Assembly (NCBI GenBank): GCA_035444565.1
Contig: DAOMOX010000001.1
Coordinates: 386,335-450,334, forward strand
Reading direction: 5' to 3'
Length of the DNA stretch: 64,000 nucleotides
Source of the DNA: Candidatus Dojkabacteria bacterium
GTDB lineage: Bacteria; Patescibacteriota; Dojkabacteria; B142; OLB20
Shown: positions 9,097 to 61,763 of the stretch, piece by piece
Position numbering within the stretch: the first letter of the stretch is position 1
Layout of the letters: every line of letters begins with the position of its first letter
Program-made: the position numbers and the translations under genes
The notes under the pieces: generated by a model
What the model was told of the DNA's origin: nothing
Database searches by the model: none
The model's input: only the letters and a program-made list of their open reading frames with translations

Positions 9097-9158
9097 GAAT
9101 CTACTGGCTTAATATTTCGCTACTTGGATAGATAATTCTGCTGTATAATTACAGTGTT

Positions 9159-28052: not shown

Positions 28053-28670
28053 CTAATTAATTTGGTCTTTTGGTTCTTTACTTGAAAAGAAAATAATCAC
28101 AAGGAAAGCACCTACTAACACTACTAAGATACCAATAAGCAAAACAAATGGCAAGGAATTTGATTCGTTGACCACTTCTTCCTCGATAATCGGTTCTGGT
28201 AGTTCCTCTAGGGTATTGATTGAGTATGATTCAAGAACAACTCCACTCTCATTTATCAAATCTCCGTTAATTGTAAGATATGCATGATCAGGATTCGCGG
28301 AGAAAACTGGTTCAATCCCGGGTTGTGTTTCCACTGTGACTTTTAATAGAACTTGATCAGTTTGTATCAAATCTTTTTTTGCAGCAATTTCTATACAGAT
28401 GTTCTGCTCAAAATAGGATTCGTTATTGTCGCATACTGGGATATAACTAAGATTTACATCATCACTATAAGCTACGTCAATAATCGTTCCTCCATCTACT
28501 TTTACACGAAATTGCACAGCCGAACTATCTTGGGTAGGTTCTGCAAGGATGTTGTAGACTTTAGTGTTATCTTGTTCGCTGACTAATTCTGCAGTTAATG
28601 CATTCACTCCAACAGTGAAGAACAATACCGAGAATAGAATTGAGAGACTTAGTGAAAAAAGAAAACGCAT
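28053..28670 (-). CDS. secreted protein with C-terminal membrane anchor, paralog family member B
   Basis: Signal peptide. 'VKVDGGTIIDVAYSDDVNLSYIPVCDNNESYFEQNICIEIA' aligns with member A. C-terminal TM 'LLIGILVVLVGAFLVIIFF' followed by 'SSKEPKDQIN'. Confidence 0.6.
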   Translation of the reverse strand: MRFLFSLSLSILFSVLFFTVGVNALTAELVSEQDNTKVYNILAEPTQDSSAVQFRVKVDGGTIIDVAYSDDVNLSYIPVCDNNESYFEQNICIEIAAKKDLIQTDQVLLKVTVETQPGIEPVFSANPDHAYLTINGDLINESGVVLESYSINTLEELPEPIIEEEVVNESNSLPFVLLIGILVVLVGAFLVIIFFSSKEPKDQIN

Positions 28671-31700: not shown

Positions 31701-32914
31701 CAGCTCTTGTAGTCACCCCACTCAAAGGAAGAGTTCAAGATGATAGGTTTGAGTTCGGGAGAGCAATCACCTCCCGGACATGAGTTCGGTCCCCCATAAA
31801 CACCCAAATCAGATCGAGAGCCGTTCAAATCTTTAATGTTTGGGTCTCCGGCGTCGATGGCAGGGGAACCGGCTTGCAGTGCGAAGTTTGTTGCGCTTAC
31901 AAATTTAGGGTCTGCGTGGAGTGAGTCACAAAATTCATTAACACCGCAACTAGTGCCTTCCCCAGCATTCCCAAAGGTTAAATTGTACGCAAATTTGTCA
32001 TTTTCCTTAAAACCTGGAGTTAGTAAGTTGTATCCTCCGATCCCAAAGCCAAAAGAATTGTCAGTGTTTTTCTTATTATTGGTTAAGATGTTATTTAAAA
32101 CTGTAACACTTGGGTTATGAACGGCACCCTGATATATAGTAATACCTGATACTACATTAGAAGAAATAATATTATTTGTGATTAATGCATTTGAATTTTC
32201 AGACAAATAAATTCCATCATTTGGATTCGAAGTAATGATGTTATTAAAAATAGTTGTTTTGGAATTCTGATATGTTCGAATCGCAGCACCAATATTGTTA
32301 GAGAATGAGTTGTTTCTAATGGTGGCCTTGGCATTCATAGAAATTGAAATTCCATATCCAAGTCCACATGTATTCGTATTACTCTCAAAACAACTATCCT
32401 CATCTGTTTTCATTCCTATTATTTTTAAACCTTCAATATTAATGACTCCTCCATGTACGACAATACCTGAAAGTGTATGAGTACTATTAGTCCCATCAAG
32501 AACTACAGAACCTTCGCCTTTTAATGTTAATGTTCTGATAGAGGTTTCAGGAATGAAAATAAAAGCTTTGAACTTTTTTTCAATGGATTCCCCATACGGT
32601 GTATAATTATATGGTGTATATCCTGTTCTTTTGTATGTCCCAGCTTTCAATAATATAGTATCGCCACTTTTTGCTGCATCAACTGCTCTCTGGATATTAT
32701 CACCACCTACATATTGACAACCATTTTGTCCTGCTGTTCCTGTTGCACAAACAGTAATCAGGTTAACAGGCGTAGTCGCAGCTTCACTATCCTCCTGCTC
32801 TGTCCGCTCCGACAAATACCGAGCCAAAACTAGTGTGAAAATCATGAATAAGAAGAGGAACAAGACTAGCAATATAGTTACTATTTGCCTTCTTTGGAGA
32901 TTTGTCTTAAGCAC
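28772..32914 (-). CDS. giant surface protein with N-terminal signal anchor, right-handed parallel beta-helix (pectin-lyase-like), two internal TM helices, Pro/Thr-rich tandem linker and C-terminal dockerin-like domain
   Basis: 1380 aa. N-terminal TM 'IVTILLVLFLFLFMIFTLVLA'. Beta-helix repeats 'NNIITSNPNDGIYLSENSNALITNNIISSNVVSGITIYQG'. Mid-protein TMs 'VLFSFILFSILSGGVTYYILY' and 'LGGLVIAGVVLLIGGFYFLMT'. Repeats '(PSDTPV)n/(PTGTIIPSDT)n'. C-terminus 'DVNGDGWFSIYDF' plus 'DVDKLGKVDIVDFQSFAQRY' matches two dockerin Ca-binding repeats. Confidence 0.8.
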   Translation of the reverse strand: MLKTNLQRRQIVTILLVLFLFLFMIFTLVLARYLSERTEQEDSEAATTPVNLITVCATGTAGQNGCQYVGGDNIQRAVDAAKSGDTILLKAGTYKRTGYTPYNYTPYGESIEKKFKAFIFIPETSIRTLTLKGEGSVVLDGTNSTHTLSGIVVHGGVINIEGLKIIGMKTDEDSCFESNTNTCGLGYGISISMNAKATIRNNSFSNNIGAAIRTYQNSKTTIFNNIITSNPNDGIYLSENSNALITNNIISSNVVSGITIYQGAVHNPSVTVLNNILTNNKKNTDNSFGFGIGGYNLLTPGFKENDKFAYNLTFGNAGEGTSCGVNEFCDSLHADPKFVSATNFALQAGSPAIDAGDPNIKDLNGSRSDLGVYGGPNSCPGGDCSPELKPIILNSSFEWGDYKSWSYGAGVDTSFTQVHDCDQWGPCSDGKKYITLGRKLDGDKTKTDFSTHWIETGQNLSGRTIRVKFNAKAHSTSSDHQPPPALEGLYIQREHPVGSGWLQQIPIPKTALTASWKTYTFDLKIPASTDINTTSFRIVLKPEMNYTYNLGYYYDNIQAEVLAQAVTTTVAPPATTIPPTTTVPPTVVVTPPVTPVAQADNFSQVVLDSAGENFYYRSCNMDKSKADGVDFTKCNNFTYQDEVWTKHSVKSLKIQTGDLVISKLRSLDIDHRIGKYENYDLTRNILYYTALSQDGKTVYTRSCDILDNQDVASCTDWTFTEASKVGAPNVSTIQSIETTTYYREGAYRTLTNVLDAKTPPYIFWSIECVTYPTEPGVSTCSPWKSDDRNVSKDNYFSSNSYVFDSGTQKKMSQSYLTQFLGVIENYICNFNPNSTTPFERCERDTTTTKASTDIESLQIPVSYGSEASLEEAASTSTSVSDLDRLDLPAECRNITLNTNYDDPYPGNRIGVQTYLNTKVPFNEGVSHTLHFFIPTQLEVPTDMGSNPNPACTFAKTEAGDKYTCNLTGGALTINLKVKDNVTPGTPILVNSRVVSSGMTTDCPTYTFNVIQKPTTTPSPSITPTPATITALTCRKVQELPSKLWTGEQVKYKVVLNDLAPGPDGTVLVRDDLSEKMELVSKPKYCELKTQEVQSAVLGISDVYTSRGSVLFSFILFSILSGGVTYYILYKNKDSITNSTLKEKPYLGGLVIAGVVLLIGGFYFLMTKEDVSPGDTPALITGNYLECKVPEGVKRIAYVMKIKGKKGDVITNTAEVQTGTNTKINTCTSDFTVTGPDVTSSNTPTPTLTPTGTIIPSDTPTGTIIPSDTPVPSDTPVPSDTPVPSDTPIVSEEPTVTPTNPLVGFICGPADVNGDGWFSIYDFGGYQVGFASYYQKLCDDTETDHISYGECGGKDVDKLGKVDIVDFQSFAQRYNKASCAL
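29055..29168 (-). repeat. in-frame tandem nucleotide repeats (18-nt and 30-nt units) encoding Pro/Thr/Ser/Asp linker of the 1380-aa protein
   Basis: Plus strand 'ggagtatcgctaggaaca / ggagtatcacttgggaca / ggagtatcacttggtaca / ggtgtatcgcttggtataattgtccctgta / ggtgtatcactaggtataattgttcctgta'. Confidence 0.8.
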
Positions 32915-39515: not shown

Positions 39516-40154
39516 TTATAAAAGTTCTCGTCTTTTATCTAGTAAGAAAATTTTAATTGCAACAGCTAAGCTCACTATTCCGGAGATAAGAATGGCACCA
39601 CCTAGTATGCCTCTGCTTGGCATATAATCTGATAGTGCTGTATTTGGAAGAACTGTAACATTACTACTTGTTCCGAAAACATATGATCCTAATACGCCAC
39701 TCTTGGGTTCTGTGAGGACACTTCCGGTTACATAACCATTTTCTTCACCACCTTCTATTGTGAATGTACCACCTGATGAGCTCAGGCTTGCAACAGTGAT
39801 TGAGCCTAGTGCTGTTCCGTTTGTGATGGGGCTGCTTGTACTTGCAAGGTCTACACATACTTCGTATTTAGTAGTGCTTATAGATCTTGAGGTAGATCCG
39901 TTTGAGTCACAGACTCCTATTGACAGTAGATTCCCACCTGATCCGCTAAAACTAACTACTTTTGCATTATTAACGATAAGTCGAATTTGTATAGTAGTTG
40001 TTGGCGTGTTTGAGTTTGAAGTGATATTTATTGTTTTGTTCCCTGAGACTGGAAATGTTCCGCTACCAGGGGACAGAGTCAATGCTGACAAACTTACAGG
40101 GTTCAGAACCAAAGCTGAAAGTGTCAATATTATGGTGATTAATAATTTTTTCAT
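39516..40154 (-). CDS. secreted protein with C-terminal membrane anchor, paralog family member C
   Basis: Signal 'MKKLLITIILTLSALVLNPVSLSA'. 'VVSFSGSGGNLLSIGVCDSNG...YEVCVDLA' aligns with members A and B. C-terminal TM 'ILGGAILISGIVSLAVAIKIFLL' followed by 'DKRRELL'. Confidence 0.6.
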   Translation of the reverse strand: MKKLLITIILTLSALVLNPVSLSALTLSPGSGTFPVSGNKTINITSNSNTPTTTIQIRLIVNNAKVVSFSGSGGNLLSIGVCDSNGSTSRSISTTKYEVCVDLASTSSPITNGTALGSITVASLSSSGGTFTIEGGEENGYVTGSVLTEPKSGVLGSYVFGTSSNVTVLPNTALSDYMPSRGILGGAILISGIVSLAVAIKIFLLDKRRELL

Positions 40155-50332: not shown

Positions 50333-50494
50333 CAGTAATTGTTATTCAAGGATGTTGATTATATAACAAAAAGGAGTAGTGGGCGATTGTTAATCGTTCG
50401 TTAAACAATTCATCAAATTTCATTATTTCTCCTTTGTTATTAACATCACTCAAGCTTTTAGTTAATATGTTATTAAATTTAAAATTGCCCTAGA

Positions 50495-51067
50495 TTGGAT
50501 CATTTATTGCCCAATGAAAAAGAGTTCGTAGAAAAAGCGCTTGTAAGTCTTGATGAATTTGTTCCTCTATATAAGTTTTATCAGAAAAAGATTTTCAATT
50601 ATTGTCTGCACAGACTTCCTACCGAAGTGGATGCCGAAGATACAACCTCTCAAGTATTTGTTAATGCACTTAATTCTTTCGCCAACAAACAATATGTGAG
50701 CTCAGATGAATATACTTTCAAAGCGTGGCTTTTTCGTATTGCCCATAATTTGATTGTTGATTTTTATCGAGGAAAATCTCGCTATAAAATAATTGAGATT
50801 GATGAAAACATTGTTGAAGATGAAGCTACTTGTCAAGAGATTGAAGAAACGCTGGACTTGGAAAGGAGTTCGAACAAGATTTTGGCAATCCTGAAAAGAT
50901 TTGATGACTCTACACAGAGTATTTTCGTACTTAGATTTAGAGAAGATATGAATTTTGAAGAAATTGCACAGGTGATAAGTCTAGACCTTTCTACAACAAA
51001 GATGAAATATTACCGGGCATTAAATCTGATAAAAAAAATAATTGAAAAAGAAAAATTTATTAATTAA
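50495..51067 (+). CDS. ECF-type RNA polymerase sigma factor (sigma-70 family, group 4)
   Basis: Region 2 'FKAWLFRIAHNLIVDFYRGKSR' and region 4 HTH 'NFEEIAQVISLDLSTTKMKYYRALNLIKK'. 190 aa. Confidence 0.8.
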   Translation: MDHLLPNEKEFVEKALVSLDEFVPLYKFYQKKIFNYCLHRLPTEVDAEDTTSQVFVNALNSFANKQYVSSDEYTFKAWLFRIAHNLIVDFYRGKSRYKIIEIDENIVEDEATCQEIEETLDLERSSNKILAILKRFDDSTQSIFVLRFREDMNFEEIAQVISLDLSTTKMKYYRALNLIKKIIEKEKFIN

Positions 51068-51069
51068 TT

Positions 51070-54000
51070 GTGACTAAAATCATGCCAAATGAGTATAAAG
51101 AAGTAGAAGAAGTTCTCTCAAAAGCGCTAAAGTCTGATCAGGATTTGAGACCTGATGCCAAAAGTGCAATGGATGAGAGAGTTAATAATACTATTCATAC
51201 TTTAAAAAACATGAAAAACGAAAACGTTCCAGAGAAAATTAGTTTTTTCTCAAAAGTTAAACTTGGTTTTTTTGCTACAAAAAAAAGAAGATTTGCCACA
51301 TTTTCTGTTGTCTCTCTTTTGTTACTCCCACTTATCATCATTACGCTTTTTGTTTTGACGAATGGGAATATTCCGATTTTCAGAAGGCAAGAAAATCTTA
51401 AAGCGGCAAGTGTCGATTTTGCGGCATCTAAAATTTCTGGAGATGGTGTGTCTCAAGATTCAGAATTTATCCTAAGAACTAAAGCGATTTATACAAATGT
51501 TGAATTGCAGGAAAAATTGAAGATTAGTCCTGCAATTAACTATGAGGTTAAAAAAATTTCCGAGGGATATAAGATATCACCGTTATCAAATCTTCAAAAA
51601 AATGTGCTTTATGAAGTCAAATTAGAGGATAGTGATGTGGATTTGGATTGGAACTTCCGTGTAGAACCCGGGTTTACAGTATTAGGTCACTCTCCAGCAG
51701 AAAACGCCCCAATCAATTCAGTGATTGAACTTAACTTTAATTATTCGGATATAGATTTAGATAGTATTCGTTCTGCATTCAAATCTAACCCTGTTATAAA
51801 TATTAAAGAAATTAAACAAGAAGGAAGAACTGTGATATTGATACCAGATAACCCTCTAACACTGAATTCTTCGTATTCATTGTATTTAAATAATACTGTG
51901 AAGAGAGAAAACGGTGAAAGTTTAAGTGTTCCGTATCAAGCTTATCTTTCTACCTATGACTCATCACAAGTGGATAACTACTCTCCTTCGATTTATTTCG
52001 GATCAACGGAAGGAAGAGAGAAATTGTTAGGATCGGAAAGAAAGGTTGCATTCAGCGTTTCTAATTATGTGTCGAATGTAAAAGGCAACGTGAAGATGTA
52101 TAAAGTTAAAAATGATATGTTCCTTGAGGCCACTAAAGAGTACTTTTCAGTAAATAGTTGGTATTCAACTTACCGTTTGGAAAGTAAGTACTTAGAAGAA
52201 ATAAAATCTGAAGAATTCACTCCTTCTCCCGATGTAGTTGTTACAGTTCCTGAAATTAATATGGGCGAAATCATTTACGTAGAAGCAAGTTACATGGGGG
52301 TTGTAAGAGGTGGTTATTATTTAACTACTGACTTATTAAGTCATATGACTTATATGCAAAATGAATTGGTATTAAATGTCTTTGATTCTCAAGGCAAAAT
52401 AATAAATGAAGGGACTGCAGATATTATTTACAAAGATAATAATAATCAAGTTCAATCAAAGTCTTTTCCAATTACAGGGATAGTTAGAATTCCTAAATCC
52501 GACTTGCCAGATCAGGATTCCATTTTGGGAGCACTGATTAATGCCAAGGGTGATAGGTTAATGTTAAGTATGACATCAAACTACCCACCAGGAACATATT
52601 GGTTTGGAGGTGATTACGAAGGTGATTCAGAATATAACAAAAACATCTTTAGTTACTTTATGATGGATAAACCTGTGTACACTGAAGGAGATAAGGTCAG
52701 ATTCAAGACCCAGTTTAGGTATTCAGAAGATTTTACTAGCTTCCAACCGTATGATGTTTCTGGACTTGAGTACGTGATTTACTATGGTGGGTCAGTTGTG
52801 GGTAAAGCGAAGCCCGAATATAACAAAGAATTAGGGTATATTACAGGAGAGTTCAACATACCAGGTGTGGGTGATAGCTATATGTCTGGGTCAATTCAGG
52901 TTGTGAGGGGTAATAACGTCATAGCTACAAAAAATTTCCCTATTCGGGAATATGTTAAACCCCAATATACGGTTTCTATTAGTGTTGATGATTCTAATAA
53001 AATATATCACCCAGGTGATGAAGTTGAATTTGCCGTAAAGGTGAATGATCTTGCAGGGAACCCATGGTCGGGGGGTGAAATCCAGGCAGACTTCGGATAT
53101 ACGGAGATGTATCGTTACTCTGGAATGAATATGACCAATTTGACTGCAAATAGCTATTTGACCAAATCAGTTGACAAAAAAACAGTTAAACTAGACTCAG
53201 GCGGCCATGTAAATCTTGTCTACAAAATAACAAACCCTGAAGTATCAGATACAAGCGACTTCTTCTCATCTGTCTTGCAGGTCAACATTGACAAACATGC
53301 AACAAAATCATATGGCGTTAAGTCAACCTTAGGAGACATTACTGTAATCGCAGAAACAACTGACAATAATGTGAGAAAGAAGTTGGGTGAAGAGGTTAAA
53401 ATCCAAGTCAAGACAGTAGATGTGCAAACTTTGACAGGTGTACCAAGTACTATAGACAAGATTGAGGTGGTTCGCCATTGGTCCGAGAAAATTCCAAGGA
53501 CATATTACAATTCAACTACACGCACCAACGAAACTACCTATGACTATGTTCAACATGAGGACCTGATAGAAACTCAGTACAATCTTAAAACTGATGATAA
53601 CGGTAATTTGGAATTGGTGAAGAAATATGACCAAGATGGTTCATACTTCTTTAGGTTTGAATTCAAAGATAGGAACAATAGACTGGTAAAATTCTATTCT
53701 TCGCTTTTCTACCTAAATGGTGATGACGATGATAGCAGTATACAGGACAATTCTCCAATAATTTACACAGATAAAAGTGTTTATGAAATTGGTGATAAGG
53801 TCAACGTTAGAGTTGAATTCCCAGATAATTTCTTGGATGGACGAGAAGCTTACATCTTCGTTTATAAAGATAAGATATACATGGAAGAGAAAATCTCGAT
53901 TACAGAGAATGTTTATAACTATTCCTATGATTTAACAAAAGAGCTTAGTCCGCAGGCAGGGATTCGGTTAGTTTATACTTTGCCAGTGAGCGACTTTGGT

Positions 54001-56391
54001 ACTGAATTTGCAAATGAAAAATATAGAGTTGTTGACTCCGTGGAGCAACATCTTGTGGTGAGAAGAGATGAAGATTTGTTAAATGTAGAAATTTCTAGTG
54101 AGAAGAAGGAATATTTCCCAGGAGAAGAAGTGAAAATGAAAATCAAAGTGACCGACGAAAACGGTAGATCGGTCTCCGGTGCAAATTTGAATACCCGAGT
54201 ATTTGATAAGTCATTGCTGGCAGTCCTCGACCAGGATAAATATCAGAAAGATATATACGATAAAGTTTTTGGGGTTTATAAAAGAATTGGAAGTCTCTTC
54301 ACTTTTCCAAAATCGCCTTATAGAGGTGATGGTGGAGATGGAGGTAGAGGTCCTGACGGAATCAGAAGAAATTTTGACGATGTTGCGACTTTCCAATCAA
54401 ATTTGATTACTGATGATTCCGGAAATGCCGAACTTAACTTTACTATTCCTGATTCTATAACTACATGGATTGTGGATGTTGATGCTTTTACAAAGATGTT
54501 GAATGTAGGCAATACTTTTGTTGAGATTTCAACGAATAAAGAGGTTATCGTGAATGGAACTTTCCCAGAAACAGTTAGAGTGGGTGATAAATTCTCTCCA
54601 AAGGTCGTTGTATACAATCACACGGACACTTCAGTAACAGGTAAATTGGTGATTACTGCCGGGGAAGGATTGGTTCTTTCAAATAGTGAGCAAAATATCG
54701 TCATTGAACCCAGAACAGGGGGAATATTTAATTTTGATGCTGAGGTAAAACAGGCAAAATCTGCGGGTACAATATTAACAATCAAGTTACTAGGAGAAGA
54801 TGGTAGTGTAATCGATGGAATTGAAAAAACCATTGAAATTAGGGTACCTGGTTTTCCAACAACATCTGTTGAATCAAAAAAACTTAGCTCAGGTGAAAAC
54901 GAATTGAAATTTAACATTGAAGGTGATCTTGAAAGAACATCAGCAAATTTGATGATTTCACCAAACTCATACAGATATGCATTCTTTACAAGAGATTTAA
55001 TAGTAAATTCTTCGGAAGAAAGAGCTTCATCAGTAGTCCATAACCTTGCAATATATGAAAATTATGACAAAGGTCAAAGTGTGATTCCGATGAGCAAAGA
55101 TTCAATATTAGACCAGTCCATTTTAAGCATTGCTGCTTTACTAGAAACGAGAAATGAAGATGGGGGTTATGGAATGTTTGGATATAGCACTTCTGACATT
55201 AAAAACACCTCCTATGTGGCATATGCCCTTGGAAAGGGAAATCAGTCCGGAGCAGGGAATAGTTATGATGAGAAGGAATTGCTCACTCAATATCTAGTTG
55301 AACAAGTTGTCACAACCGAAGGCAAGGTGAACAAATCTACGACTCCTTATGATAAGACCATGGCAGTATGGGCTCTAAGTTACATTGATCCATCAAAGGC
55401 AATCAACTATGCACAAATGATCAAAAGTCAGTTGAATGGAGACGAGACTATGGCAGAACTATCACTTCTGGCAGACGCTCTGTATACGTCGGGAAGCACT
55501 GGGGATGCTCGAGCTGTCACACAAGAGATGCTTTCAAAATTACAAACAAATAATTTGAATCAGATGTTTATTGAAGAATATCAACCTTACTCAGAGAATA
55601 AATATTTCGCAAATATCTTTCTTTGGAAGATGCTAAATGTATTAGACCTAGATGATAATTCCGAAGAAAAAGTCGGGAATTGGATAATGGCTAATACAGA
55701 AACAGATTCGGCTTTTGAATCAGCACTAATTAACGAGATGTTATTGAATTATAGAGTGCAAGAACAGTCTGTAGATGCTGAAATTGAGCTTTATGTAAAC
55801 GAGACAGAAGTATTTAAAGGTAATATCTCAGAATTTGGTGAAAGCTTCCTTCTAACTAATCTAAAAGGAGGAGAGAATGTTGTTAGAATAACCTCCAACA
55901 AAGATGGGCTGAGATATCTTCTGAAACTCAGTGAGGTGACTCAAAGTCAAATTACATCGACAGACGATTTTACGGTTAAAACTGAGTACATGCCTTTAGA
56001 AACAATGATTAGTTCTTCTACAATCCCCTCAAGCGAGTACACATTGGTGAGACTTACCGTTACTGCCAAAAAAGAACACAAAGGATATCATGTTAAGACT
56101 TATCTTCCTGCTGGTGTTACTGTTGGTAGTGCTATCCCTAGACTGGATTCCTCAGAAGCATATCGTGATTGGGTCTACAGTAAGAACTATTCAAATAAAT
56201 GGCCACAGGTATCAAGAGGATCGCTAACTTTTGATGCGTATTATAGTGAAAATAGTAATACTCAGGTATTTGAATATCTCCTTGTAACGGACCACAAAGG
56301 GGTCTATGGAACTGATGGAACTTATGTTTACTACGACGATGGTTCAGGTTTTAAGGGTTATGATGCAGGGAAAACGATTACAATAAACTAA
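51070..56391 (+). CDS. giant single-pass membrane protein with anti-sigma-like cytoplasmic N-terminus and alpha-2-macroglobulin-like extracytoplasmic region (multiple MG domains, thioester-less)
   Basis: About 85-aa N-terminal segment then TM 'FATFSVVSLLLLPLIIITLFVLT'. Repeated MG-domain starts 'KPVYTEGDKVRFK', 'KIYHPGDEVEFAVKV', 'KSVYEIGDKVNVRVEF' and 'KEYFPGEEVKMKIKV'. A2M signature 'RRNFDDVATFQSNLITDDSGNAELNFTIPDSITTWIVDVDAF'. No Cys anywhere in the 1773 aa. Starts 3 nt after the sigma factor stop. Confidence 0.8.
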   Translation: MTKIMPNEYKEVEEVLSKALKSDQDLRPDAKSAMDERVNNTIHTLKNMKNENVPEKISFFSKVKLGFFATKKRRFATFSVVSLLLLPLIIITLFVLTNGNIPIFRRQENLKAASVDFAASKISGDGVSQDSEFILRTKAIYTNVELQEKLKISPAINYEVKKISEGYKISPLSNLQKNVLYEVKLEDSDVDLDWNFRVEPGFTVLGHSPAENAPINSVIELNFNYSDIDLDSIRSAFKSNPVINIKEIKQEGRTVILIPDNPLTLNSSYSLYLNNTVKRENGESLSVPYQAYLSTYDSSQVDNYSPSIYFGSTEGREKLLGSERKVAFSVSNYVSNVKGNVKMYKVKNDMFLEATKEYFSVNSWYSTYRLESKYLEEIKSEEFTPSPDVVVTVPEINMGEIIYVEASYMGVVRGGYYLTTDLLSHMTYMQNELVLNVFDSQGKIINEGTADIIYKDNNNQVQSKSFPITGIVRIPKSDLPDQDSILGALINAKGDRLMLSMTSNYPPGTYWFGGDYEGDSEYNKNIFSYFMMDKPVYTEGDKVRFKTQFRYSEDFTSFQPYDVSGLEYVIYYGGSVVGKAKPEYNKELGYITGEFNIPGVGDSYMSGSIQVVRGNNVIATKNFPIREYVKPQYTVSISVDDSNKIYHPGDEVEFAVKVNDLAGNPWSGGEIQADFGYTEMYRYSGMNMTNLTANSYLTKSVDKKTVKLDSGGHVNLVYKITNPEVSDTSDFFSSVLQVNIDKHATKSYGVKSTLGDITVIAETTDNNVRKKLGEEVKIQVKTVDVQTLTGVPSTIDKIEVVRHWSEKIPRTYYNSTTRTNETTYDYVQHEDLIETQYNLKTDDNGNLELVKKYDQDGSYFFRFEFKDRNNRLVKFYSSLFYLNGDDDDSSIQDNSPIIYTDKSVYEIGDKVNVRVEFPDNFLDGREAYIFVYKDKIYMEEKISITENVYNYSYDLTKELSPQAGIRLVYTLPVSDFGTEFANEKYRVVDSVEQHLVVRRDEDLLNVEISSEKKEYFPGEEVKMKIKVTDENGRSVSGANLNTRVFDKSLLAVLDQDKYQKDIYDKVFGVYKRIGSLFTFPKSPYRGDGGDGGRGPDGIRRNFDDVATFQSNLITDDSGNAELNFTIPDSITTWIVDVDAFTKMLNVGNTFVEISTNKEVIVNGTFPETVRVGDKFSPKVVVYNHTDTSVTGKLVITAGEGLVLSNSEQNIVIEPRTGGIFNFDAEVKQAKSAGTILTIKLLGEDGSVIDGIEKTIEIRVPGFPTTSVESKKLSSGENELKFNIEGDLERTSANLMISPNSYRYAFFTRDLIVNSSEERASSVVHNLAIYENYDKGQSVIPMSKDSILDQSILSIAALLETRNEDGGYGMFGYSTSDIKNTSYVAYALGKGNQSGAGNSYDEKELLTQYLVEQVVTTEGKVNKSTTPYDKTMAVWALSYIDPSKAINYAQMIKSQLNGDETMAELSLLADALYTSGSTGDARAVTQEMLSKLQTNNLNQMFIEEYQPYSENKYFANIFLWKMLNVLDLDDNSEEKVGNWIMANTETDSAFESALINEMLLNYRVQEQSVDAEIELYVNETEVFKGNISEFGESFLLTNLKGGENVVRITSNKDGLRYLLKLSEVTQSQITSTDDFTVKTEYMPLETMISSSTIPSSEYTLVRLTVTAKKEHKGYHVKTYLPAGVTVGSAIPRLDSSEAYRDWVYSKNYSNKWPQVSRGSLTFDAYYSENSNTQVFEYLLVTDHKGVYGTDGTYVYYDDGSGFKGYDAGKTITIN

Positions 56392-56433: not shown

Positions 56434-56742
56434 CATACTCATCTTTGTTTACCATAAATTGAGATTAAACAAAACTTGAGTTATGCTACAATTCCTTAGT
56501 AAGGAAGGGTGTCCAGCCTTCGTCAAGACTTCGGCTGGTAAACTGAGATTGTCCCTCCCTTCGATGAAGGGTGGGGTGAAGCCGAAAGAGTTCAAATAAT
56601 GGAAGGGTCGCATCCCTCTACCCCCTGATAAAGTTAGGGGTTCGAGGGACAAGTAGACTCAAGATAATAAGTAAAACCATTTTGGAAGGGTGTCTGAGTT
56701 TGCCCCGCCTTGGCGGGGTGAAGTCGAAAGAGTTTAAATATT

Positions 56743-56829
56743 GGAAGGGTCGCATAGTGGTCTAGTGCCCCGCTCTCGAAAAGCGGTATCGGGGAAACCT
56801 GATCGTGGGTTCAAATCCCACCCCTTCCG
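56743..56829 (+). tRNA. tRNA-Ser (anticodon CGA), class II with long variable arm
   Basis: Hand-folded cloverleaf. Acceptor GGAAGGG/CCCTTCC, discriminator G73, 3-bp D-stem GCA/TGC. Anticodon stem CCGCT/AGCGG with loop CU-CGA-AA. About 18-nt variable arm. T-arm GTGGG-TTCAAAT-CCCAC. No encoded CCA. Confidence 0.85.
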
Positions 56830-57070
56830 AGACTGTTGATGAATCGAACTAAGCGATGATGAAGCATACAGTCGTTGGGAACGGCCTTGCGCTGTTTCGC
56901 CACGATTAGATTCCGCAGAGCAAAACAAAACGTGGGCGGGAACAACCTGGCGCTGTTCCGTTCTACTTCGCTGAAGCTTCGTAGAGCATAGCTATTCTCT
57001 ATAAGTACAAGTTATATAATCCCCCTAGAAGTAATTTGAAAAATAAGATAAAGTTATCGAGAGGTGCTAT

Positions 57071-57388
57071 GTGAATAATTATTTGCTTTTTGATTTTACC
57101 AATATGAGTGTCATCAATCATTTCAAACCTAACAAAACCAGGATTAAAATTTTCTTAATAGTTTTTTTACTGTTTATTTTTCTCAATATCCTAATAATTT
57201 ATAGATTTGGTCCTTTCTGGGATAGGCCTTTATCTATCGGTTATCCGGTAGATATTTATAAGTTGGGTTGTGGGATGTCTCCATTGTTAACAGGTGCGGT
57301 ATGTCTAACTGGTTTCAGTGCTCTAGGCTTACTAATCAACGTGATTTTTTGGTATCTAGTCTCTACATTTATTAAGAGAAGCAAATAA
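57071..57388 (+). CDS. small hypothetical membrane protein
   Basis: 105 aa with 2-3 hydrophobic helices. First gene after the tRNA island. Confidence 0.4.
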   Translation: MNNYLLFDFTNMSVINHFKPNKTRIKIFLIVFLLFIFLNILIIYRFGPFWDRPLSIGYPVDIYKLGCGMSPLLTGAVCLTGFSALGLLINVIFWYLVSTFIKRSK

Positions 57389-57437
57389 ACGCTAAAAAAA
57401 TTGTATAGTTAACTAAATAGTTATTTTTTGGAATATT

Positions 57438-58088
57438 ATGATAAAACTACTATTTTTCACCACAAAACTGCTTATATTAGTATTTTTTATATATATAATT
57501 TCACATATTACTTCCTGGTTCTCTCCACGCAGGTACCTGGGTGATCCTACATGGTGGATCCTCATCTATCGTATTATTTCTTCTTTCTATTGTTTAAATA
57601 TAGGTTTAATTATCTTGAAAAAACTGAGCCCAGATCTGAGGAAACAGAAGATCATAATCATGATAATCATATTCTTACTTACAATCTTCATATTTGATTG
57701 GCAAAGACTTGTTGACCGAACCATAAATGACAGAACCGAAATTGTTGAAGAAACAAGTACTCAGATTCTTTGCTCTAAAGAAAAATTAGGCAACAGAAGG
57801 ATATGTGATAGCAAAACAGATATAGAGACAGTATTTTTAGAGGATTCTGATACTTTAGTAATTAGATATTTTTTCCTAAACGATATTATGCCCGAACTTG
57901 AATCAATATGGGGTAGAAAACCCATGGAAATCAGACTAAAAGAGATTACTGTTTCTGGGAGTATTGGTTCTCCACCATGGCAATTGGTCGAAATAAAAAT
58001 TGATTTTAAAGAAGATGTCGTCTTGGATGAAACTGAAATCTATGTTGAGCATATATTAATGGGGGGATATGAGATTCCAATTGAGTAA
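57438..58088 (+). CDS. hypothetical membrane protein
   Basis: 216 aa. Three N-terminal TM segments, then a soluble domain. Confidence 0.45.
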   Translation: MIKLLFFTTKLLILVFFIYIISHITSWFSPRRYLGDPTWWILIYRIISSFYCLNIGLIILKKLSPDLRKQKIIIMIIIFLLTIFIFDWQRLVDRTINDRTEIVEETSTQILCSKEKLGNRRICDSKTDIETVFLEDSDTLVIRYFFLNDIMPELESIWGRKPMEIRLKEITVSGSIGSPPWQLVEIKIDFKEDVVLDETEIYVEHILMGGYEIPIE

Positions 58089-58152
58089 TTGGTTATCCTT
58101 TTTCTAAAATTGTTGTTATAATTTTCATAAGTGACTTGTTATTCACAAAACC

Positions 58153-59298
58153 TTGAATAAACTCAAGACAATCTTTAAATCCATTCATATACCATATCTA
58201 TCAAGTATTATACTTAACCTCATTATTAGTTATTCTTTATATATTGTTATCTCGGTATCGTCATCTGCTGGAACAAGTCCATTTCCTCGAGCAGTCGAAT
58301 CCCAATATCTCCCTATTTACGGGTTGATTCTCTCATTTATTAATCCGATGTATATAGTTACTTACATTTACATGATTAAGAATCATAAGAATTTAGAGAA
58401 TAGTGCATTTTATGGATTAAATATTGTTCAGATTAGTATTTATTTCTCAACATTAATTACGATTGCAATTCAGTTGCTTATTTATCTTGAAACATATTGG
58501 AATCAATATTTTCCTATTAATATGTTGACTAATCTGACAACTCTGGCAACCATTAACTTGGATTTGGCTTTGAGATCCTCTGCCTATGTCTATTCATTAA
58601 TGAATATTCAAGATGGCCCTATTATTATGTCTTCTTTGGGACTCGCTCTAATCACAATTTTTGCACCCATTTTCTTTATTTTCTATGGTTTGGTATTTTA
58701 CCTTAGACATAGGAAATATAAAGTTCAATCTGAATCGCAGCAAAGGTTATTCAAGATAATTTCTATCCTTGTTTCGTTAAATTTGATTATTATATTCGGA
58801 ATTATTCTGTTTAATAGCATTAATAAAAACGGACAGTTCCATAAGGCCATTGACAAAGGGGATGTTTCTGCTTGTGAGAAATTATTCAATCAAGACTTGA
58901 GAGAGAAATGTGTTAGCGAGTATGTATTGGATAAACCATACTTCCATGAATGCAATTCCATATCGGACACTATGAGTTTGTATGATTATTGTATAGAGGA
59001 GGTATCAAAGATAAGTAATGATTGGAAAGGGTGTTATGAATTAAACGAGAATCAAAGAGTGAAAGAATGTATTAATGATATTGCTATAAGAAATAACTAT
59101 TTTCTCGATACTGAAGTCTGTGATGCGATGGCTCCAGACGAAGATGACATATATTTTAGGATGGGAGAAACAATAGCTTGTTATGCCAAGATTGCTTATA
59201 TTAAGAAAGATCATTCATTATGCAATGAGCTGAAGGGGTACGATGCTAGGGCATGTTATGATGAATACTTGTCATTATGGGAGGAGGATAATCTTTAG
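58153..59298 (+). CDS. polytopic membrane protein with C-terminal Cys-rich extracytoplasmic domain (paralog 1)
   Basis: N-terminal ~220 aa with about 6 TM. C-terminal ~160 aa has 13 Cys. 'CYAKIAYIKKDHSLCNELKGYDARACYDEY' is conserved in paralog 2. Confidence 0.6.
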   Translation: MNKLKTIFKSIHIPYLSSIILNLIISYSLYIVISVSSSAGTSPFPRAVESQYLPIYGLILSFINPMYIVTYIYMIKNHKNLENSAFYGLNIVQISIYFSTLITIAIQLLIYLETYWNQYFPINMLTNLTTLATINLDLALRSSAYVYSLMNIQDGPIIMSSLGLALITIFAPIFFIFYGLVFYLRHRKYKVQSESQQRLFKIISILVSLNLIIIFGIILFNSINKNGQFHKAIDKGDVSACEKLFNQDLREKCVSEYVLDKPYFHECNSISDTMSLYDYCIEEVSKISNDWKGCYELNENQRVKECINDIAIRNNYFLDTEVCDAMAPDEDDIYFRMGETIACYAKIAYIKKDHSLCNELKGYDARACYDEYLSLWEEDNL

Positions 59299-59385
59299 TG
59301 GGCGATTCCTAAATATTTCAATATAATTAAGACATTATGATAGATAATTGTTAGAATTTCTTATAACTAATACAACTTCTACGTA

Positions 59386-60528
59386 GTGAACAGACTAAAA
59401 AGAATCCTCTCATCAATCAAAACCCCATATATTTTAAGTGTTCTCCCAAATTTATTAATAACTATCTTTTTCTGGTTTATGGTTAGTTTCTTCGGAGATA
59501 CTGCCACTACAACTATTTCTGACTTCTTGTTATTACCCTTATTCCTACTGGGAGGTACAATTCTCACAATTATAAATCCAATGTACTTAGTAACATATTT
59601 ATATATGAGAAGAAATCACAAAAGATTTGATAATAGTGTGTACTATGGATTTAATATAGTTTTACTGAGTTTGTTTTTTTCTGCCCTTATTACTGTATTT
59701 GTTGAGTTAATTCAGGTCACTAAATTATTCCTCGACTATACAATAATTGAGAATTTCCTTAATAATCCCACTAGTTGGTTTCTTCTGGGAACGGATCTGA
59801 CTGTTAGGAATATGCTCTACACCAATTTTATGCTAGATATGTTTTCCGGAATAGCTGATTCTGAATGGCTCCTCGGTCTTATGGCACTAACATATTTATT
59901 ACCACTGTTCTTTATACTTTACGGATTTGTATATATTGTAAGACATTTCAAATTTCGAGTCTTTAATCAAGGGCAAAAGAGATTATCAATTGCATTGGTA
60001 ATTCTACTTTCTTTGACTTCCGTTTTATTAATAATGACTCCTATAATACATTCAAAATATTTAGATGGCATGGTTTCAAAGGCTATAAATATGAACGATA
60101 TAAAGTTTTGTAGAGATATGAATGATTATGAGATGACCAGAGAATGCATAGTAAAATATTCTTCAGAGAACAAAAGTTTTGTAGCATGTAATGCATTGTC
60201 TGATAATTACATTGAAATGAGGGCTTGTATTGATGAGGTTTCAATACACTCCAAGGACTGGAGGGAATGTTATTCATTAAAAGAAGATGTGCAAAAGTGT
60301 ATATACGATGTTGCTCGCAGAAATGATTACTTCTTGGATATAGAAATTTGTAATGTATTAACATTAGACGAAGAGAACCCAAATTCGGGGGGATATTATT
60401 CAGCGATGTGTTATGCGAAAATCGGATATGAAACGAAAGACTTCGGATTATGTAGTAGATTACAAACAGAAGCAGATTACGAAACTTGCATTCGAGAGTT
60501 GGATTCGTTGAGACGATATAATTACTAA
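59386..60528 (+). CDS. polytopic membrane protein with C-terminal Cys-rich extracytoplasmic domain (paralog 2)
   Basis: Co-linear with 58153-59298 ('MNRLKRILSSIKTPYILSVLPNLLIT' vs 'MNKLKTIFKSIHIPYLSSIILNLIIS'). Conserved Cys spacing, including 'CYAKIGYETKDFGLCSRLQTEADYETCIRE'. Confidence 0.6.
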   Translation: MNRLKRILSSIKTPYILSVLPNLLITIFFWFMVSFFGDTATTTISDFLLLPLFLLGGTILTIINPMYLVTYLYMRRNHKRFDNSVYYGFNIVLLSLFFSALITVFVELIQVTKLFLDYTIIENFLNNPTSWFLLGTDLTVRNMLYTNFMLDMFSGIADSEWLLGLMALTYLLPLFFILYGFVYIVRHFKFRVFNQGQKRLSIALVILLSLTSVLLIMTPIIHSKYLDGMVSKAINMNDIKFCRDMNDYEMTRECIVKYSSENKSFVACNALSDNYIEMRACIDEVSIHSKDWRECYSLKEDVQKCIYDVARRNDYFLDIEICNVLTLDEENPNSGGYYSAMCYAKIGYETKDFGLCSRLQTEADYETCIRELDSLRRYNY

Positions 60529-60582
60529 GTTAGGGAATATATAAGGTTCGTATTTCTTTCAAAAGAAACTATAATTAAACAA

Positions 60583-61038
60583 ATGAAATTCCAGACTCTC
60601 ACTCAAAACTACTATGAAGAATCAGTACAGCTACTGTTAGACTTGGAATTAGATACGCGAGAGGAAATTGAACACCACCTTGTTGATATGGATGCACATC
60701 TGATTTGTCTGGATGGCGATACGGTTGTGGGGATAGTTGGGTGGTACAAGGATAACGTGAATTATGCAAACGAAGCCATGGGAGATTTGTTTCCTGGAGA
60801 AGAAGCATTTTGGGTCGGATTCTTCGGTGTTAAATGTGAATATCAAAATAAAGGAATTGGAACTCAACTCCTCTCAAGGATGGAAGAAAATATAAGAGAA
60901 AGAGGTGCTAATGAATGGTGGGTTTCTTCGGTCCCCGAAGCGAAAGAATTCTATGAAAAGAAAGGGTTTCCCGTTGTTTGTATTGGGGAGATTAGTGGAA
61001 ATAAGAAGTTTTTTATGAGGAAGAAGTTATCTGATTAA
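60583..61038 (+). CDS. GNAT-family N-acetyltransferase
   Basis: 'FGVKCEYQNKGIGTQLLSRMEENIRE' and '...AKEFYEKKGF'. Confidence 0.7.
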   Translation: MKFQTLTQNYYEESVQLLLDLELDTREEIEHHLVDMDAHLICLDGDTVVGIVGWYKDNVNYANEAMGDLFPGEEAFWVGFFGVKCEYQNKGIGTQLLSRMEENIRERGANEWWVSSVPEAKEFYEKKGFPVVCIGEISGNKKFFMRKKLSD

Positions 61039-61094: not shown

Positions 61095-61763
61095 ATGATT
61101 ACTTTTGATCACCTATTTATAATCCTTAAACCGACTATCATTGTAGTGTGCCTTTTTCTAATTTTTTCAGTTGTATTCTATCTGATTAAGAAATGGGTTA
61201 GGGTTTTGATTCTAGGAAGAAAATTTAAATTCCAAAATCAATATTCAACGGATAGACAAATGCTAGATAGACTTACAGATTTATCACCAAGTGAGTTTGA
61301 GGGTTATATTGGAAATCTGTACAGGAAACTTGGTTATGATATAAAAGTAGTTGGAGGTAGAAGTGATGGAGGTATAGATGTTATTGCAGATAAAGATGGG
61401 GTTCGATCCTATATACAATGTAAGCGTTATAAAACTAGCACGGTCTCAGTTCACGATGTGAGAGATTTCTACGGTGCTTTGGTAAACAAATTAACTAATA
61501 GCAAAGGTGTTTTCGTAACCACAAATATCTTTTCAAAAGAAGCAGAACTATTTTCTGAAGGGAAGCCGATTGAATTGCTAGATGGTTTCAAATTAATAAA
61601 ACTGATCAAGTTAACGGAAAGTAATAAAAAGGTAGTTATTCCTAAAGTAACACAATCTGTATGTCCAAAATGTGGTAGTAGTTTAATATTAAAAAGTGGT
61701 AAATACGGGGAATTCTATGGGTGTACAAAATATCCAGAATGTAAGTTTACAAAATCTACTTAG
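61095..61763 (+). CDS. membrane-anchored Mrr-cat-type restriction endonuclease-fold protein with C-terminal topoisomerase-type C4 zinc ribbon
   Basis: N-terminal TM. 'SPSEFEGYIGNLYRKLGYDIKVVGGRSDGGIDVIADKDGVRSYIQCKRYK' is the Mrr_cat (PD-(D/E)xK) pattern. C-terminus 'CPKCGSSLILKSGKYGEFYGCTKYPECKF'. Confidence 0.7.
   Translation: MITFDHLFIILKPTIIVVCLFLIFSVVFYLIKKWVRVLILGRKFKFQNQYSTDRQMLDRLTDLSPSEFEGYIGNLYRKLGYDIKVVGGRSDGGIDVIADKDGVRSYIQCKRYKTSTVSVHDVRDFYGALVNKLTNSKGVFVTTNIFSKEAELFSEGKPIELLDGFKLIKLIKLTESNKKVVIPKVTQSVCPKCGSSLILKSGKYGEFYGCTKYPECKFTKST

What the first reader, a model, noticed from the sequence alone, without database searches (positions are those of the whole stretch)
51070..56391. 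1773-residue protein with no cysteine at all; A2M-like but necessarily thioester-less
Reading the translation, I find no Cys codon in the entire 5.3-kb ORF. The position where the A2M thioester motif (CGEQ) would sit reads 'DLIVNSSEERASS'. A Cys-free extracellular protein of this size is unusual. It may reflect an oxidising or episymbiotic surface lifestyle. It also implies a non-covalent (trap-only or binding) mechanism if the A2M homology is real. Complete Cys avoidance suggests selection rather than chance.
Basis: seen in the sequence. Interest (0 to 1): 0.55.

Follow-up and report, generated by a model that had tools for sequence, protein, structure and literature searches.

The report
Cysteine-free macroglobulin paired with sigma factor
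A 1,769-residue membrane-anchored surface protein of a probable Saccharibacteria genome really has no cysteine and is a thioester-less relative of the protease trap alpha-2-macroglobulin; in every relative examined it sits directly behind an ECF sigma factor gene, so it is probably that sigma factor's membrane-bound anti-sigma sensor.

Summary
ORF 51070-56391 (+) is intact and has 0 Cys. The real start is probably ATG 51082, giving 1,769 aa. The other 52 window ORFs have 0.90% Cys, so about 16 would be expected.

The A2M homology is real, from Pfam hits and from two AlphaFold models whose best PDB matches are native E. coli ECAM and Salmonella A2M. A TED domain is present. The CxEQ thioester site reads SSEE (Cys to Ser, Gln to Glu).

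The zero-Cys state holds in ten sequences down to 26% identity (17,876 residues), so it is maintained. It is not a proteome-wide exclusion: all ten predicted exported proteins in the window carry even, paired Cys counts. Bacterial A2Ms are Cys-poor anyway (0.32%), and thioester-less "Type II" A2Ms are already known. Taken alone, the flagged feature is modest.

The new point lies outside it. An ECF sigma gene sits immediately upstream (gap -17 to +20 nt) in 11 of 11 distinct loci, although flanking genes differ. The protein has a conserved roughly 70-aa cytoplasmic N-terminus followed by one TM helix. This is the standard sigma/anti-sigma arrangement, so it is most likely an A2M-fold anti-sigma sensor, widespread in Patescibacteria and not described in the literature searched. 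The anti-sigma role is inferred from context and was not demonstrated.

The parts
50495..51067 (+). ECF-type sigma-70 factor gene (190 aa, sigma2 + sigma4 only), 14 nt upstream of the A2M-like gene
   Evidence: Pfam Sigma70_r2 and Sigma70_r4. NCBIfam TIGR02937 sigma70-ECF scores 70.4 bits against a cut-off of 42.9; the best specific models (BldN, SigX) fall below their cut-offs. An orthologous sigma sits immediately upstream of the A2M-like gene in 11/11 loci.
51082..56391 (+). A2M-like gene (1,769 aa + stop; the mechanical ORF begins at GTG 51070); zero Cys
51082..51291 (+). Cytoplasmic N-terminal domain, aa 1-70: three predicted helices (2-15, 24-46, 55-64), ending in the positively charged KKRR; candidate sigma-binding (anti-sigma) module
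   Evidence: AlphaFold secondary structure, low pLDDT 46-65. 62-74% identical in close homologues, the same as the ectodomain. No match to a known anti-sigma family.
51292..51360 (+). Single transmembrane helix FATFSVVSLLLLPLIIITLFVLT (aa 71-93), N-in / C-out signal anchor
   Evidence: Hydropathy scan, model helix 67-92, translation.
51412..54222 (+). Extracytoplasmic stack of beta-sandwich MG-like domains (Big_5 at ORF residues 206-290, MG2 at 529-598, A2M_BRD at 899-1051; ORF numbering is 4 higher than ATG numbering)
   Evidence: Pfam. Model m7f0135d6f9f1 has pLDDT 81. Foldseek best hits are ECAM 5a42 at 5e-27 and Sa-A2M 4u48.
54223..54357 (+). Bait-region-equivalent linker (aa 1048-1092, ...FPKSPYRGDGGDGGRGPD), predicted disordered, just before the RRNF...TTW start of the Pfam A2M (MG7) domain
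   Evidence: pLDDT below 50 for model residues 169-210. Sequence confirmed. It is the best conserved segment among relatives.
54358..54981 (+). A2M (MG7) domain and CUB-like beta domain
   Evidence: Pfam PF00207, 7.6e-15; model strands.
54982..55761 (+). Thioester-domain (TED) homologue: an all-helical domain of about a dozen helices that keeps the NEDGGYGMF motif
   Evidence: Model helices 423-678, i.e. aa 1302-1557. Aligned with the TEDs of thioester-bearing relatives. Foldseek gives TMq 0.60 to native ECAM and Sa-A2M.
55009..55020 (+). Degenerate thioester site SSEE, aligned with C-x-E-Q (Cys to Ser1310, Gln to Glu1313)
55762..56388 (+). C-terminal beta domains (CUB return and MG8/bMG10-like)
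   Evidence: Pfam bMG10 is weak: 20.6 bits, below the 26.2 cut-off. Model strands 688-889.

Best explanation
The locus is a two-gene operon. It encodes an ECF sigma factor and a single-pass membrane protein whose ~70-residue cytoplasmic N-terminus most likely binds and sequesters that sigma, acting as an anti-sigma factor. The ~1,670-residue extracytoplasmic part is a complete but thioester-less alpha-2-macroglobulin: an MG stack, a bait-like linker, MG7, CUB, TED and a C-terminal MG domain.

Shown: the architecture, the membrane topology prediction, the A2M fold, the loss of the thioester (SSEE for CxEQ), the strict and ancient sigma/A2M gene pairing, and the clade-wide absence of Cys.

Inferred: the N-terminus holds the sigma at the membrane. 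An event at the ectodomain then leads to degradation or a conformational change of the anti-sigma, releasing the sigma. The most natural such event for this fold is cleavage of the bait-like linker by a foreign protease, followed by the A2M-type conformational change and non-covalent trapping as in Type II A2M MagD. The released sigma would then induce the operon and other envelope genes.

The lack of cysteine follows from the biology of the family. The lipobox Cys is replaced by a TM anchor. The thioester Cys has been lost. Bacterial MG domains carry no disulfides. In an organism that oxidises exported cysteines into pairs, any further, unpaired Cys would be harmful and is removed by selection.
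For: (1) An ECF sigma gene lies immediately upstream on the same strand in the window and in 10 further distinct loci: L001, L002 (L003 and L004 carry the same protein), L005, L008, L009, L010, L011, L012, L015 and L016. The gap runs from -17 to +20 nt and the genes often overlap. Their A2M-like proteins are only 19-74% identical to the window protein. Flanking genes differ among the loci. Sigma identity to the window sigma falls in step (69% down to 24%), so the pair is inherited as a unit.
(2) Controls: relative P0041, which lacks the cytoplasmic N-terminus, has no sigma upstream. The thioester-bearing relative P0006 sits next to penicillin-binding proteins instead.
(3) The sigma is a minimal ECF sigma (sigma2 + sigma4, 190 aa, TIGR02937 passed) with no regulatory extension. 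No other candidate partner gene lies in the operon: an MFS transporter on the opposite strand is upstream and tRNA-Ser is downstream.
(4) Topology: aa 1-70 are cytoplasmic, with three predicted helices and KKRR before the TM helix at aa 71-93. 76 of 139 full-length relatives share a cytoplasmic N-terminus of at least 35 aa followed by a TM helix.
(5) The cytoplasmic segment is as conserved as the ectodomain in close homologues.
(6) The ectodomain is a genuine A2M with a disordered bait-like linker.
(7) A thioester-less A2M can still be cleaved at its bait region and trap a protease non-covalently (MagD, PMC5764988).
(8) Large sensory ectodomains on single-pass anti-sigma factors have precedent: RsiV PMC4183432, DdvA PMC11506125 and Tt-TolB PMC3397946.
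Against: The N-terminal domain matches no known anti-sigma family. Pfam found nothing for the window protein or for 63 relatives' N-termini, and a profile search of PDB gave only noise. Its AlphaFold confidence is low. Gene adjacency shows co-inheritance and probably co-expression, not binding. The bait-like linker is the most conserved segment, unlike the variable baits of broad-spectrum A2Ms. Cleavage there would also leave about 1,000 ectodomain residues on the membrane, so how the signal would reach the cytoplasmic side is unexplained. No site-2 protease or regulon was identified. Only 11 loci were inspected, and they were chosen from the best-scoring relatives.
Confidence: 0.6

Rival explanations
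1. It is an ordinary thioester-less (Type II-like) bacterial A2M. It acts only as a membrane-tethered protease trap or shield on the cell surface. It is co-transcribed with the ECF sigma because it is that sigma's main regulon member. The N-terminal segment is merely a signal anchor, and the sigma is controlled by some other factor.
For: The A2M fold and bait-like linker. Type II A2Ms trap without a thioester. The N-terminus has no detectable anti-sigma domain. Databases name relatives only as 'alpha-2-macroglobulin family protein' or 'Ig-like domain-containing protein'.
Against: A signal anchor does not need about 70 conserved, helical cytoplasmic residues. The relative without this extension also lacks the sigma. 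Overlapping stop and start codons and 11/11 pairing across 24-69% sigma identity are typical of sigma/anti-sigma pairs. No alternative anti-sigma gene is present in any of the operons.
Confidence: 0.25
2. It is a surface adhesin or host-interaction protein of an episymbiont. It has kept the A2M scaffold but lost all protease-related function. Cys loss and thioester loss are both side-effects of that change of function.
For: The organism is probably a Saccharibacterium. Very large surface proteins with adhesion-type domains are noted in Patescibacteria, in a paper that cites the bacterial A2M structure (PMC13059738). The bait-like linker is conserved rather than variable.
Against: The full A2M domain order, including TED and the bait-like linker, is retained, and the C-terminal half superposes best on the native conformation of ECAM. 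The sigma pairing is not explained. This reading does not exclude an anti-sigma role.
Confidence: 0.1
3. The Cys-free state is simply the organism's general exclusion of cysteine from exported proteins, as in aerobic Firmicutes.
For: Cys exclusion from exported proteins is documented in Gram-positive Firmicutes (PMC2823432). The window's overall Cys content is low at 0.90%.
Against: The ten predicted exported proteins of the window contain 52 Cys in 4,407 aa (1.18%), always in even numbers. One 1,380-aa surface protein has 30 Cys, mostly in near-neighbour pairs. Relatives with Cys also show an even bias: 51 of 76, p = 0.004. In a related genome, DsbA-like genes flank the pair.
Confidence: 0.04
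4. It is a decaying pseudogene or a translation artefact.
For: None beyond the unusual composition.
Against: The reading frame is intact over 5.3 kb and colinear with homologues of 1,770-1,827 aa at 26-74% identity from independent samples. Both structural models are confident.
Confidence: 0.01

Closest known systems
Type II bacterial alpha-2-macroglobulins (P. aeruginosa MagD / E. coli YfaS type)
   Same: The A2M domain order with a TED but no CxEQ thioester, and a bait region retained. MagD traps a protease non-covalently after bait cleavage (PMC5764988).
   Different: MagD is a periplasmic protein of Gram-negatives, encoded in the six-gene magABCDEF operon and held at the membrane through MagB. 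The window protein carries its own N-terminal cytoplasmic domain and TM helix. It has no mag-like neighbours and is paired with an ECF sigma. Sequence similarity to any non-Patescibacteria-type A2M is only about 20%.
Type I bacterial A2Ms (E. coli ECAM/YfhM, Salmonella Sa-A2M)
   Same: They are the best structural matches: 5a42 and 4u48, E about 1e-44, TMq 0.60 for the C-terminal half, and E 5e-27 for the N-terminal half. The domain order is the same.
   Different: Type I proteins have a CLEQ thioester and a lipobox Cys, and are encoded next to PBP1c. That arrangement is seen for the distant relative P0006. None of these three features is present here.
Single-pass anti-sigma factors with large sensory ectodomains (RsiV, DdvA, T. 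tengcongensis TolB-like anti-sigma, RsbN)
   Same: The gene lies directly downstream of, and is co-oriented with, a minimal ECF sigma. The topology is N-in, with a short helical cytoplasmic domain, one TM helix and a large extracytoplasmic sensor (papers listed). RsbN shows that an anti-sigma domain can lack any sequence similarity to the known classes (PMC6101532).
   Different: No anti-sigma factor with an A2M-fold ectodomain was found in the literature searched. The N-terminal domain here matches no known anti-sigma family. Binding has not been tested.
Cysteine exclusion or even-number Cys bias in exported bacterial proteins (Daniels et al. 2010)
   Same: Zero Cys in a long exported protein fits the general rule that unpaired exported cysteines are selected against.
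   Different: This organism's exported proteins follow the even-biased (disulfide-forming) pattern, not the exclusion pattern. The zero count is therefore a property of this protein family and not of the proteome.

Membership tests
Alpha-2-macroglobulin / thioester-containing protein superfamily | MG-domain stack with the A2M (MG7) and bait-region domains | tested here: met
   Pfam A2M 55 bits (cut-off 21), A2M_BRD 51.1 (22.7), MG2 34.8 (32.8). Foldseek best hits for both halves are ECAM and Sa-A2M.
Alpha-2-macroglobulin / thioester-containing protein superfamily | Helical thioester domain (TED) inserted in a CUB domain | tested here: met
   The model has about a dozen helices at aa 1302-1557, flanked by beta domains. 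The DGGxG(W/M)F motif is kept. Pfam's TED model itself gave no hit.
Alpha-2-macroglobulin / thioester-containing protein superfamily | Intramolecular Cys-Gln thioester (CxEQ) | tested here: not met
   SSEE aligns with CxEQ and the protein contains no Cys.
Type II bacterial A2M (MagD/YfaS) | Lacks CxEQ but retains a bait region | tested here: met
   CxEQ is absent. A disordered linker at aa 1048-1092 occupies the bait position. Actual cleavage is untested.
Type II bacterial A2M (MagD/YfaS) | Encoded in a six-gene mag-type operon with the MagA, B, C, E and F partners | tested here: not met
   The neighbours are an ECF sigma, an MFS transporter on the opposite strand and tRNA-Ser. The same sigma pairing, with no mag-type operon around it, is seen in 10 related loci.
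Type I bacterial A2M (ECAM/YfhM) | Lipoprotein signal peptide with a lipobox Cys, and adjacency to PBP1c | tested here: not met
   The N-terminus is a 70-aa cytoplasmic segment plus a TM helix with no Cys. There is no PBP gene nearby.
Membrane-bound anti-sigma factors of ECF sigma factors | Gene adjacent to and co-oriented with the cognate ECF sigma gene, conserved across taxa | tested here: met
   11/11 loci, gap -17 to +20 nt. A relative lacking the N-terminal extension also lacks the sigma.
Membrane-bound anti-sigma factors of ECF sigma factors | N-in topology: a cytoplasmic N-terminal helical domain followed by one TM helix | tested here: met
   Helices at aa 2-15, 24-46 and 55-64, KKRR, then a TM helix at aa 71-93. 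These are predictions only.
Membrane-bound anti-sigma factors of ECF sigma factors | Recognisable anti-sigma domain (class I ZAS / zf-HC2, RskA, class II and so on) | tested here: not met
   No Pfam or NCBIfam hit for the window N-terminus. No anti-sigma family was found among 63 relatives' N-termini. A profile search of PDB gave only noise.
Membrane-bound anti-sigma factors of ECF sigma factors | Physical binding to and inhibition of the cognate sigma | not testable with these tools
This needs AlphaFold-Multimer, a two-hybrid test or a pull-down.

The most novel reading that the evidence does not exclude
A complete alpha-2-macroglobulin protease-bait machine has been adopted as the extracellular sensor of a transmembrane anti-sigma factor. 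Proteolytic attack on the cell surface (by a host, a competitor or a predator) is sensed by bait cleavage and the A2M conformational change, and is converted directly into ECF-sigma-dependent transcription. This would be a decoy-type surveillance circuit, widespread in Patescibacteria, with a new sequence class of anti-sigma domain.
Probability: 0.3. Interest if true: 0.8.

Novelty: new variant of a known kind. Interest (0 to 1): 0.55.

Why it matters
The Cys-free, thioester-less state adds little on its own, because thioester-less bacterial A2Ms and selection against unpaired exported cysteines are both known. The conserved ECF sigma/A2M-like pair matters more, for three reasons.

1. It gives a testable function to one of the very large, unannotated surface proteins of the ultrasmall episymbiotic Patescibacteria.
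2. It would be a third genomic and functional context for bacterial A2Ms, after the PBP1c-linked Type I and the mag-operon Type II.
3. It would add a new type of sensory input, proteolytic attack read by an A2M fold, and probably a new anti-sigma domain class to ECF signalling.

These genomes have very few regulators, so a conserved sigma/sensor pair is likely to control an important envelope or host-interaction response.

Tried and rejected
(1) Sequence search of the full protein against PDB: no hit at E <= 0.01. Fold comparison was needed instead.
(2) Pfam and NCBIfam on the N-terminal 198 aa: nothing relevant.
(3) Profile of nine N-termini against PDB: only coiled-coil, BAG and designed-protein noise.
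(4) Pfam scan of 63 relatives' N-termini: only single weak hits and no anti-sigma family.
(6) First representative search failed because the profile exceeded 1,200 positions. It was repeated with aa 1-1150.
(7) Metagenome scan: alignment A8 was too divergent for patterns. A9 returned only two loci, one truncated at its 5' end and one a distant high-GC A2M, so it gave no systematic synteny count.
(8) Genome scan: a single short Saccharibacteria contig. It is useful for taxonomy only.
(9) Promoter comparison upstream of the sigma genes: an AAC-containing block is shared by the four closest loci only and nothing by the distant ones, so no ECF promoter can be claimed.
(10) PADLOC: no defence-system match.
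(11) Literature: no paper links A2M with anti-sigma or ECF factors, or anti-sigma factors with Patescibacteria. The supplements of the ECF classification paper are not held.
(12) Proteome-wide Cys exclusion: rejected.
(13) A Ser-Gln or Ser-Glu oxyester replacing the thioester: considered. Ser/Thr is conserved at the Cys position, but the partner residue is mostly Asp or Glu, which cannot form an ester spontaneously. A helix N-cap role is the simpler reading. Not tested.
Full report
OBSERVATION. The ORF 51070-56391 (+) is real and uninterrupted, with 1,773 codons from a GTG and not one Cys codon. The two other frames of the same DNA contain 31 and 96 TGT/TGC triplets. 352 of the 1,769 codons are a single substitution away from Cys. 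Base composition therefore does not explain the absence. All close homologues begin MPNEYKE or MSDEYKK, so the real start is almost certainly ATG 51082, giving 1,769 aa. The 52 other ORFs of at least 100 aa in the window contain 0.90% Cys, which predicts about 16 Cys and P(0) of about 1e-7.

IS IT A2M, AND IS THE THIOESTER GONE? Pfam finds A2M, A2M_BRD, MG2 and Big_5 above their cut-offs and bMG10 just below. No PDB chain is detectable by sequence. Two AlphaFold models were made. The model of aa 880-1769 has pLDDT 77.5 and the model of aa 1-900 has pLDDT 81.1. Both find native E. coli ECAM (5a42) and Salmonella A2M (4u48) as their best PDB matches, with E 8e-45 and TMq 0.60 for the C-terminal half and E 5e-27 for the N-terminal half.

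The C-terminal model shows the canonical order. First comes the bait-region domain. Next is a disordered linker at aa 1048-1092. After that come MG7, CUB, an all-helical TED at aa 1302-1557, and the C-terminal beta domains. In two independent alignments SSEE (aa 1310-1313; window 55009-55020) falls on the C-x-E-Q of thioester-bearing relatives, and the downstream TED motif NEDGGYGMF is kept. The protein is an A2M with a TED but without any possible thioester.

IS THE CYS ABSENCE MORE THAN CHANCE, AND WHY? An exhaustive profile search found 4,001 relatives. Among the best 139 full-length ones the Cys frequency is only 0.32%, so the family is intrinsically Cys-poor. On that background about 6 Cys are expected here, giving P(0) of about 0.002. 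The zero state is also shared by the nine closest homologues aligned with the window protein, down to 26% identity. Together these ten sequences hold 17,876 residues and no Cys, where about 63 are expected at the family rate. Selection against Cys in this clade is therefore real.

It is not a property of the organism's exported proteome. The ten predicted exported or membrane-anchored proteins of the window hold 52 Cys in 4,407 aa (1.18%), always in even numbers. A 1,380-aa beta-helix surface protein has 30 Cys, mostly in near-neighbour pairs. By the criterion of Daniels et al. (PMC2823432) this is the even-biased pattern of a disulfide-forming organism, not the exclusion pattern of Firmicutes. 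Relatives that do contain Cys also favour even numbers (51 of 76, p = 0.004).

The simplest account has four parts. Bacterial MG domains have no disulfides. The two functional cysteines of classical bacterial A2Ms, the lipobox and the thioester, are both dispensable here. An unpaired exported Cys is harmful in an oxidising compartment. Zero is therefore the stable state.

The gene ending 14 nt upstream (50495-51067) encodes a minimal ECF sigma factor. It has sigma2 and sigma4 only and passes TIGR02937, with BldN and SigX as the nearest models, both below their cut-offs. The A2M-like protein does not start with a signal peptide or lipobox. It starts with about 70 cytoplasmic residues, predicted as three helices and ending in KKRR, followed by one TM helix at aa 71-93. 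This is the textbook layout of an ECF sigma and its membrane-bound anti-sigma factor.

I tested the pairing in every related locus I could fetch. The loci were L001, L002 (with L003 and L004), L005, L008, L009, L010 (a 1.2-Mb contig), L011, L012, L015 (a complete 1.09-Mb genome) and L016. All carry an ECF sigma immediately upstream on the same strand, with gaps from -17 to +20 nt, although the surrounding genes differ. The sigma proteins diverge in step with their partners, from 69% down to 24% identity.

Two contrasts support specificity. Relative P0041 lacks the cytoplasmic extension and has no sigma upstream. The thioester-bearing relative P0006 sits next to penicillin-binding proteins, which is the classical Type I context. 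Of 139 full-length relatives, 76 have the cytoplasmic extension plus TM helix and only 10 have CxEQ. The arrangement therefore defines a large subfamily. Its named members come from Saccharibacteria, Kerfeldbacteria and unclassified small genomes.

LIMITS OF THE ANTI-SIGMA INFERENCE. The N-terminal domain matches no known anti-sigma family in Pfam, in NCBIfam or by profile against PDB. Its model confidence is low, as might be expected for a domain that folds on its partner. Binding is therefore inferred from context and topology only.

The signal is unknown. The A2M fold suggests cleavage of the bait-like linker by a foreign protease, followed by a conformational change and non-covalent trapping, as shown for the thioester-less MagD (PMC5764988). 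Two facts sit awkwardly with that. The linker is the most conserved segment of the protein, which is unlike a broad-spectrum bait. Cleavage there would also leave about 1,000 residues on the membrane stub. I give 0.6 to the statement that it is the cognate anti-sigma or sensor of the upstream ECF sigma, and about 0.3 to the full protease-sensing circuit.

COMPARISON WITH WHAT IS KNOWN. Thioester-less bacterial A2Ms (Type II, MagD/YfaS) are established. The window protein shares their loss of CxEQ and their retention of a bait position. It fails their defining genomic feature, the mag operon, and it differs in how it is anchored. It fails the Type I features of thioester, lipobox and PBP1c adjacency. 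Anti-sigma factors with large ectodomains are known (RsiV, DdvA, a TolB-like anti-sigma). I found no paper connecting an A2M fold with an anti-sigma or ECF system, or describing anti-sigma factors in Patescibacteria. Databases call the relatives 'alpha-2-macroglobulin family protein', 'Ig-like domain-containing protein' or 'hypothetical protein'.

VERDICT. Its interpretation is partly right: thioester-less and selected, but not a lifestyle-wide Cys avoidance and not unprecedented. The locus is best described as a new variant of known kinds, namely a thioester-less A2M fused to an anti-sigma-like membrane module and locked to an ECF sigma factor. Interest is moderate for the flagged feature and higher for the operon architecture. 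Overall interest is 0.55.

Noticed in passing
window 56570-56613 and 56712-56755; tRNA-Ser(cga) at 56742-56830: A 44-nt direct repeat (91% identical) whose second copy overlaps the 5' end of the tRNA-Ser gene. About 30 nt of upstream sequence and the first 14 nt of the tRNA are therefore duplicated 142 nt upstream. This may be a remnant of an integration or duplication event.
   Followed up: partly
window 57071-61038, compared with L003/L004 7208-7740: About 4 kb of genes lies between tRNA-Ser and the Mrr-type restriction endonuclease gene (61095-61763). They encode small membrane proteins, two paralogous 380-aa multi-TM proteins (58153-59298 and 59386-60528, 36% identical, each with 10 Cys in the C-terminal third) and a GNAT. 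In L003 and L004 the Mrr gene follows the A2M-like gene directly and is followed by a serine recombinase and a terminase. This looks like a variable island next to the tRNA.
   Followed up: partly
window 27413-28033 (-), 28053-28670 (-), 39516-40154 (-): Three similar small proteins of about 205-212 aa with no Pfam match. Each has a signal peptide, a C-terminal hydrophobic segment and two Cys at about positions 80 and 92-100.
   Followed up: no
window 28772-32914 (-): A 1,380-aa membrane-anchored beta-helix (NosD-like) surface protein with 30 Cys, mostly in near-neighbour pairs (56/66, 175/183, 323/329, 379/384, 421/427 and so on). It is the opposite extreme to the Cys-free A2M-like protein in the same genome.
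   Followed up: partly
window 20739-21509 (+): A rhomboid-family intramembrane protease gene. It is not linked to the operon, but it shows that the genome has at least one intramembrane protease.
   Followed up: no
L015 (CP129477.1) 1-578 and 8481-9419: In this complete 1.09-Mb related genome, DsbA/Thioredoxin_4-like genes lie about 1.8 kb upstream of, and immediately downstream of, the sigma/A2M-like pair. That A2M-like protein (P0040) has 8 Cys.
   Followed up: no
window 55009-55020 and the aligned column in relatives (alignment A8): The residue aligned with the thioester Cys is Ser or Thr in nearly all of the N-terminally extended relatives. The residue aligned with Gln is mostly Asp or Glu, occasionally Gln. 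This is probably a helix N-cap, and an ester is unlikely, but it was not tested.
   Followed up: partly
window 54223-54357 (aa 1048-1092): The disordered bait-position linker (…PYRGDGGDGGRGPD) is the most conserved region of the protein among relatives: 27-80% identity against 22-72% for the TED. This is the reverse of what is expected for a promiscuous bait.
   Followed up: partly
window about 50435-50470; L001, L002 and L005 upstream of their sigma genes: A block containing (G)AAC(T/A)T(T/C)AC, followed about 17 nt later by TTA(G/A/T), is shared upstream of the sigma gene in the four closest loci. It may be an ECF-type -35 element. It is not recognisable in more distant loci.
   Followed up: partly
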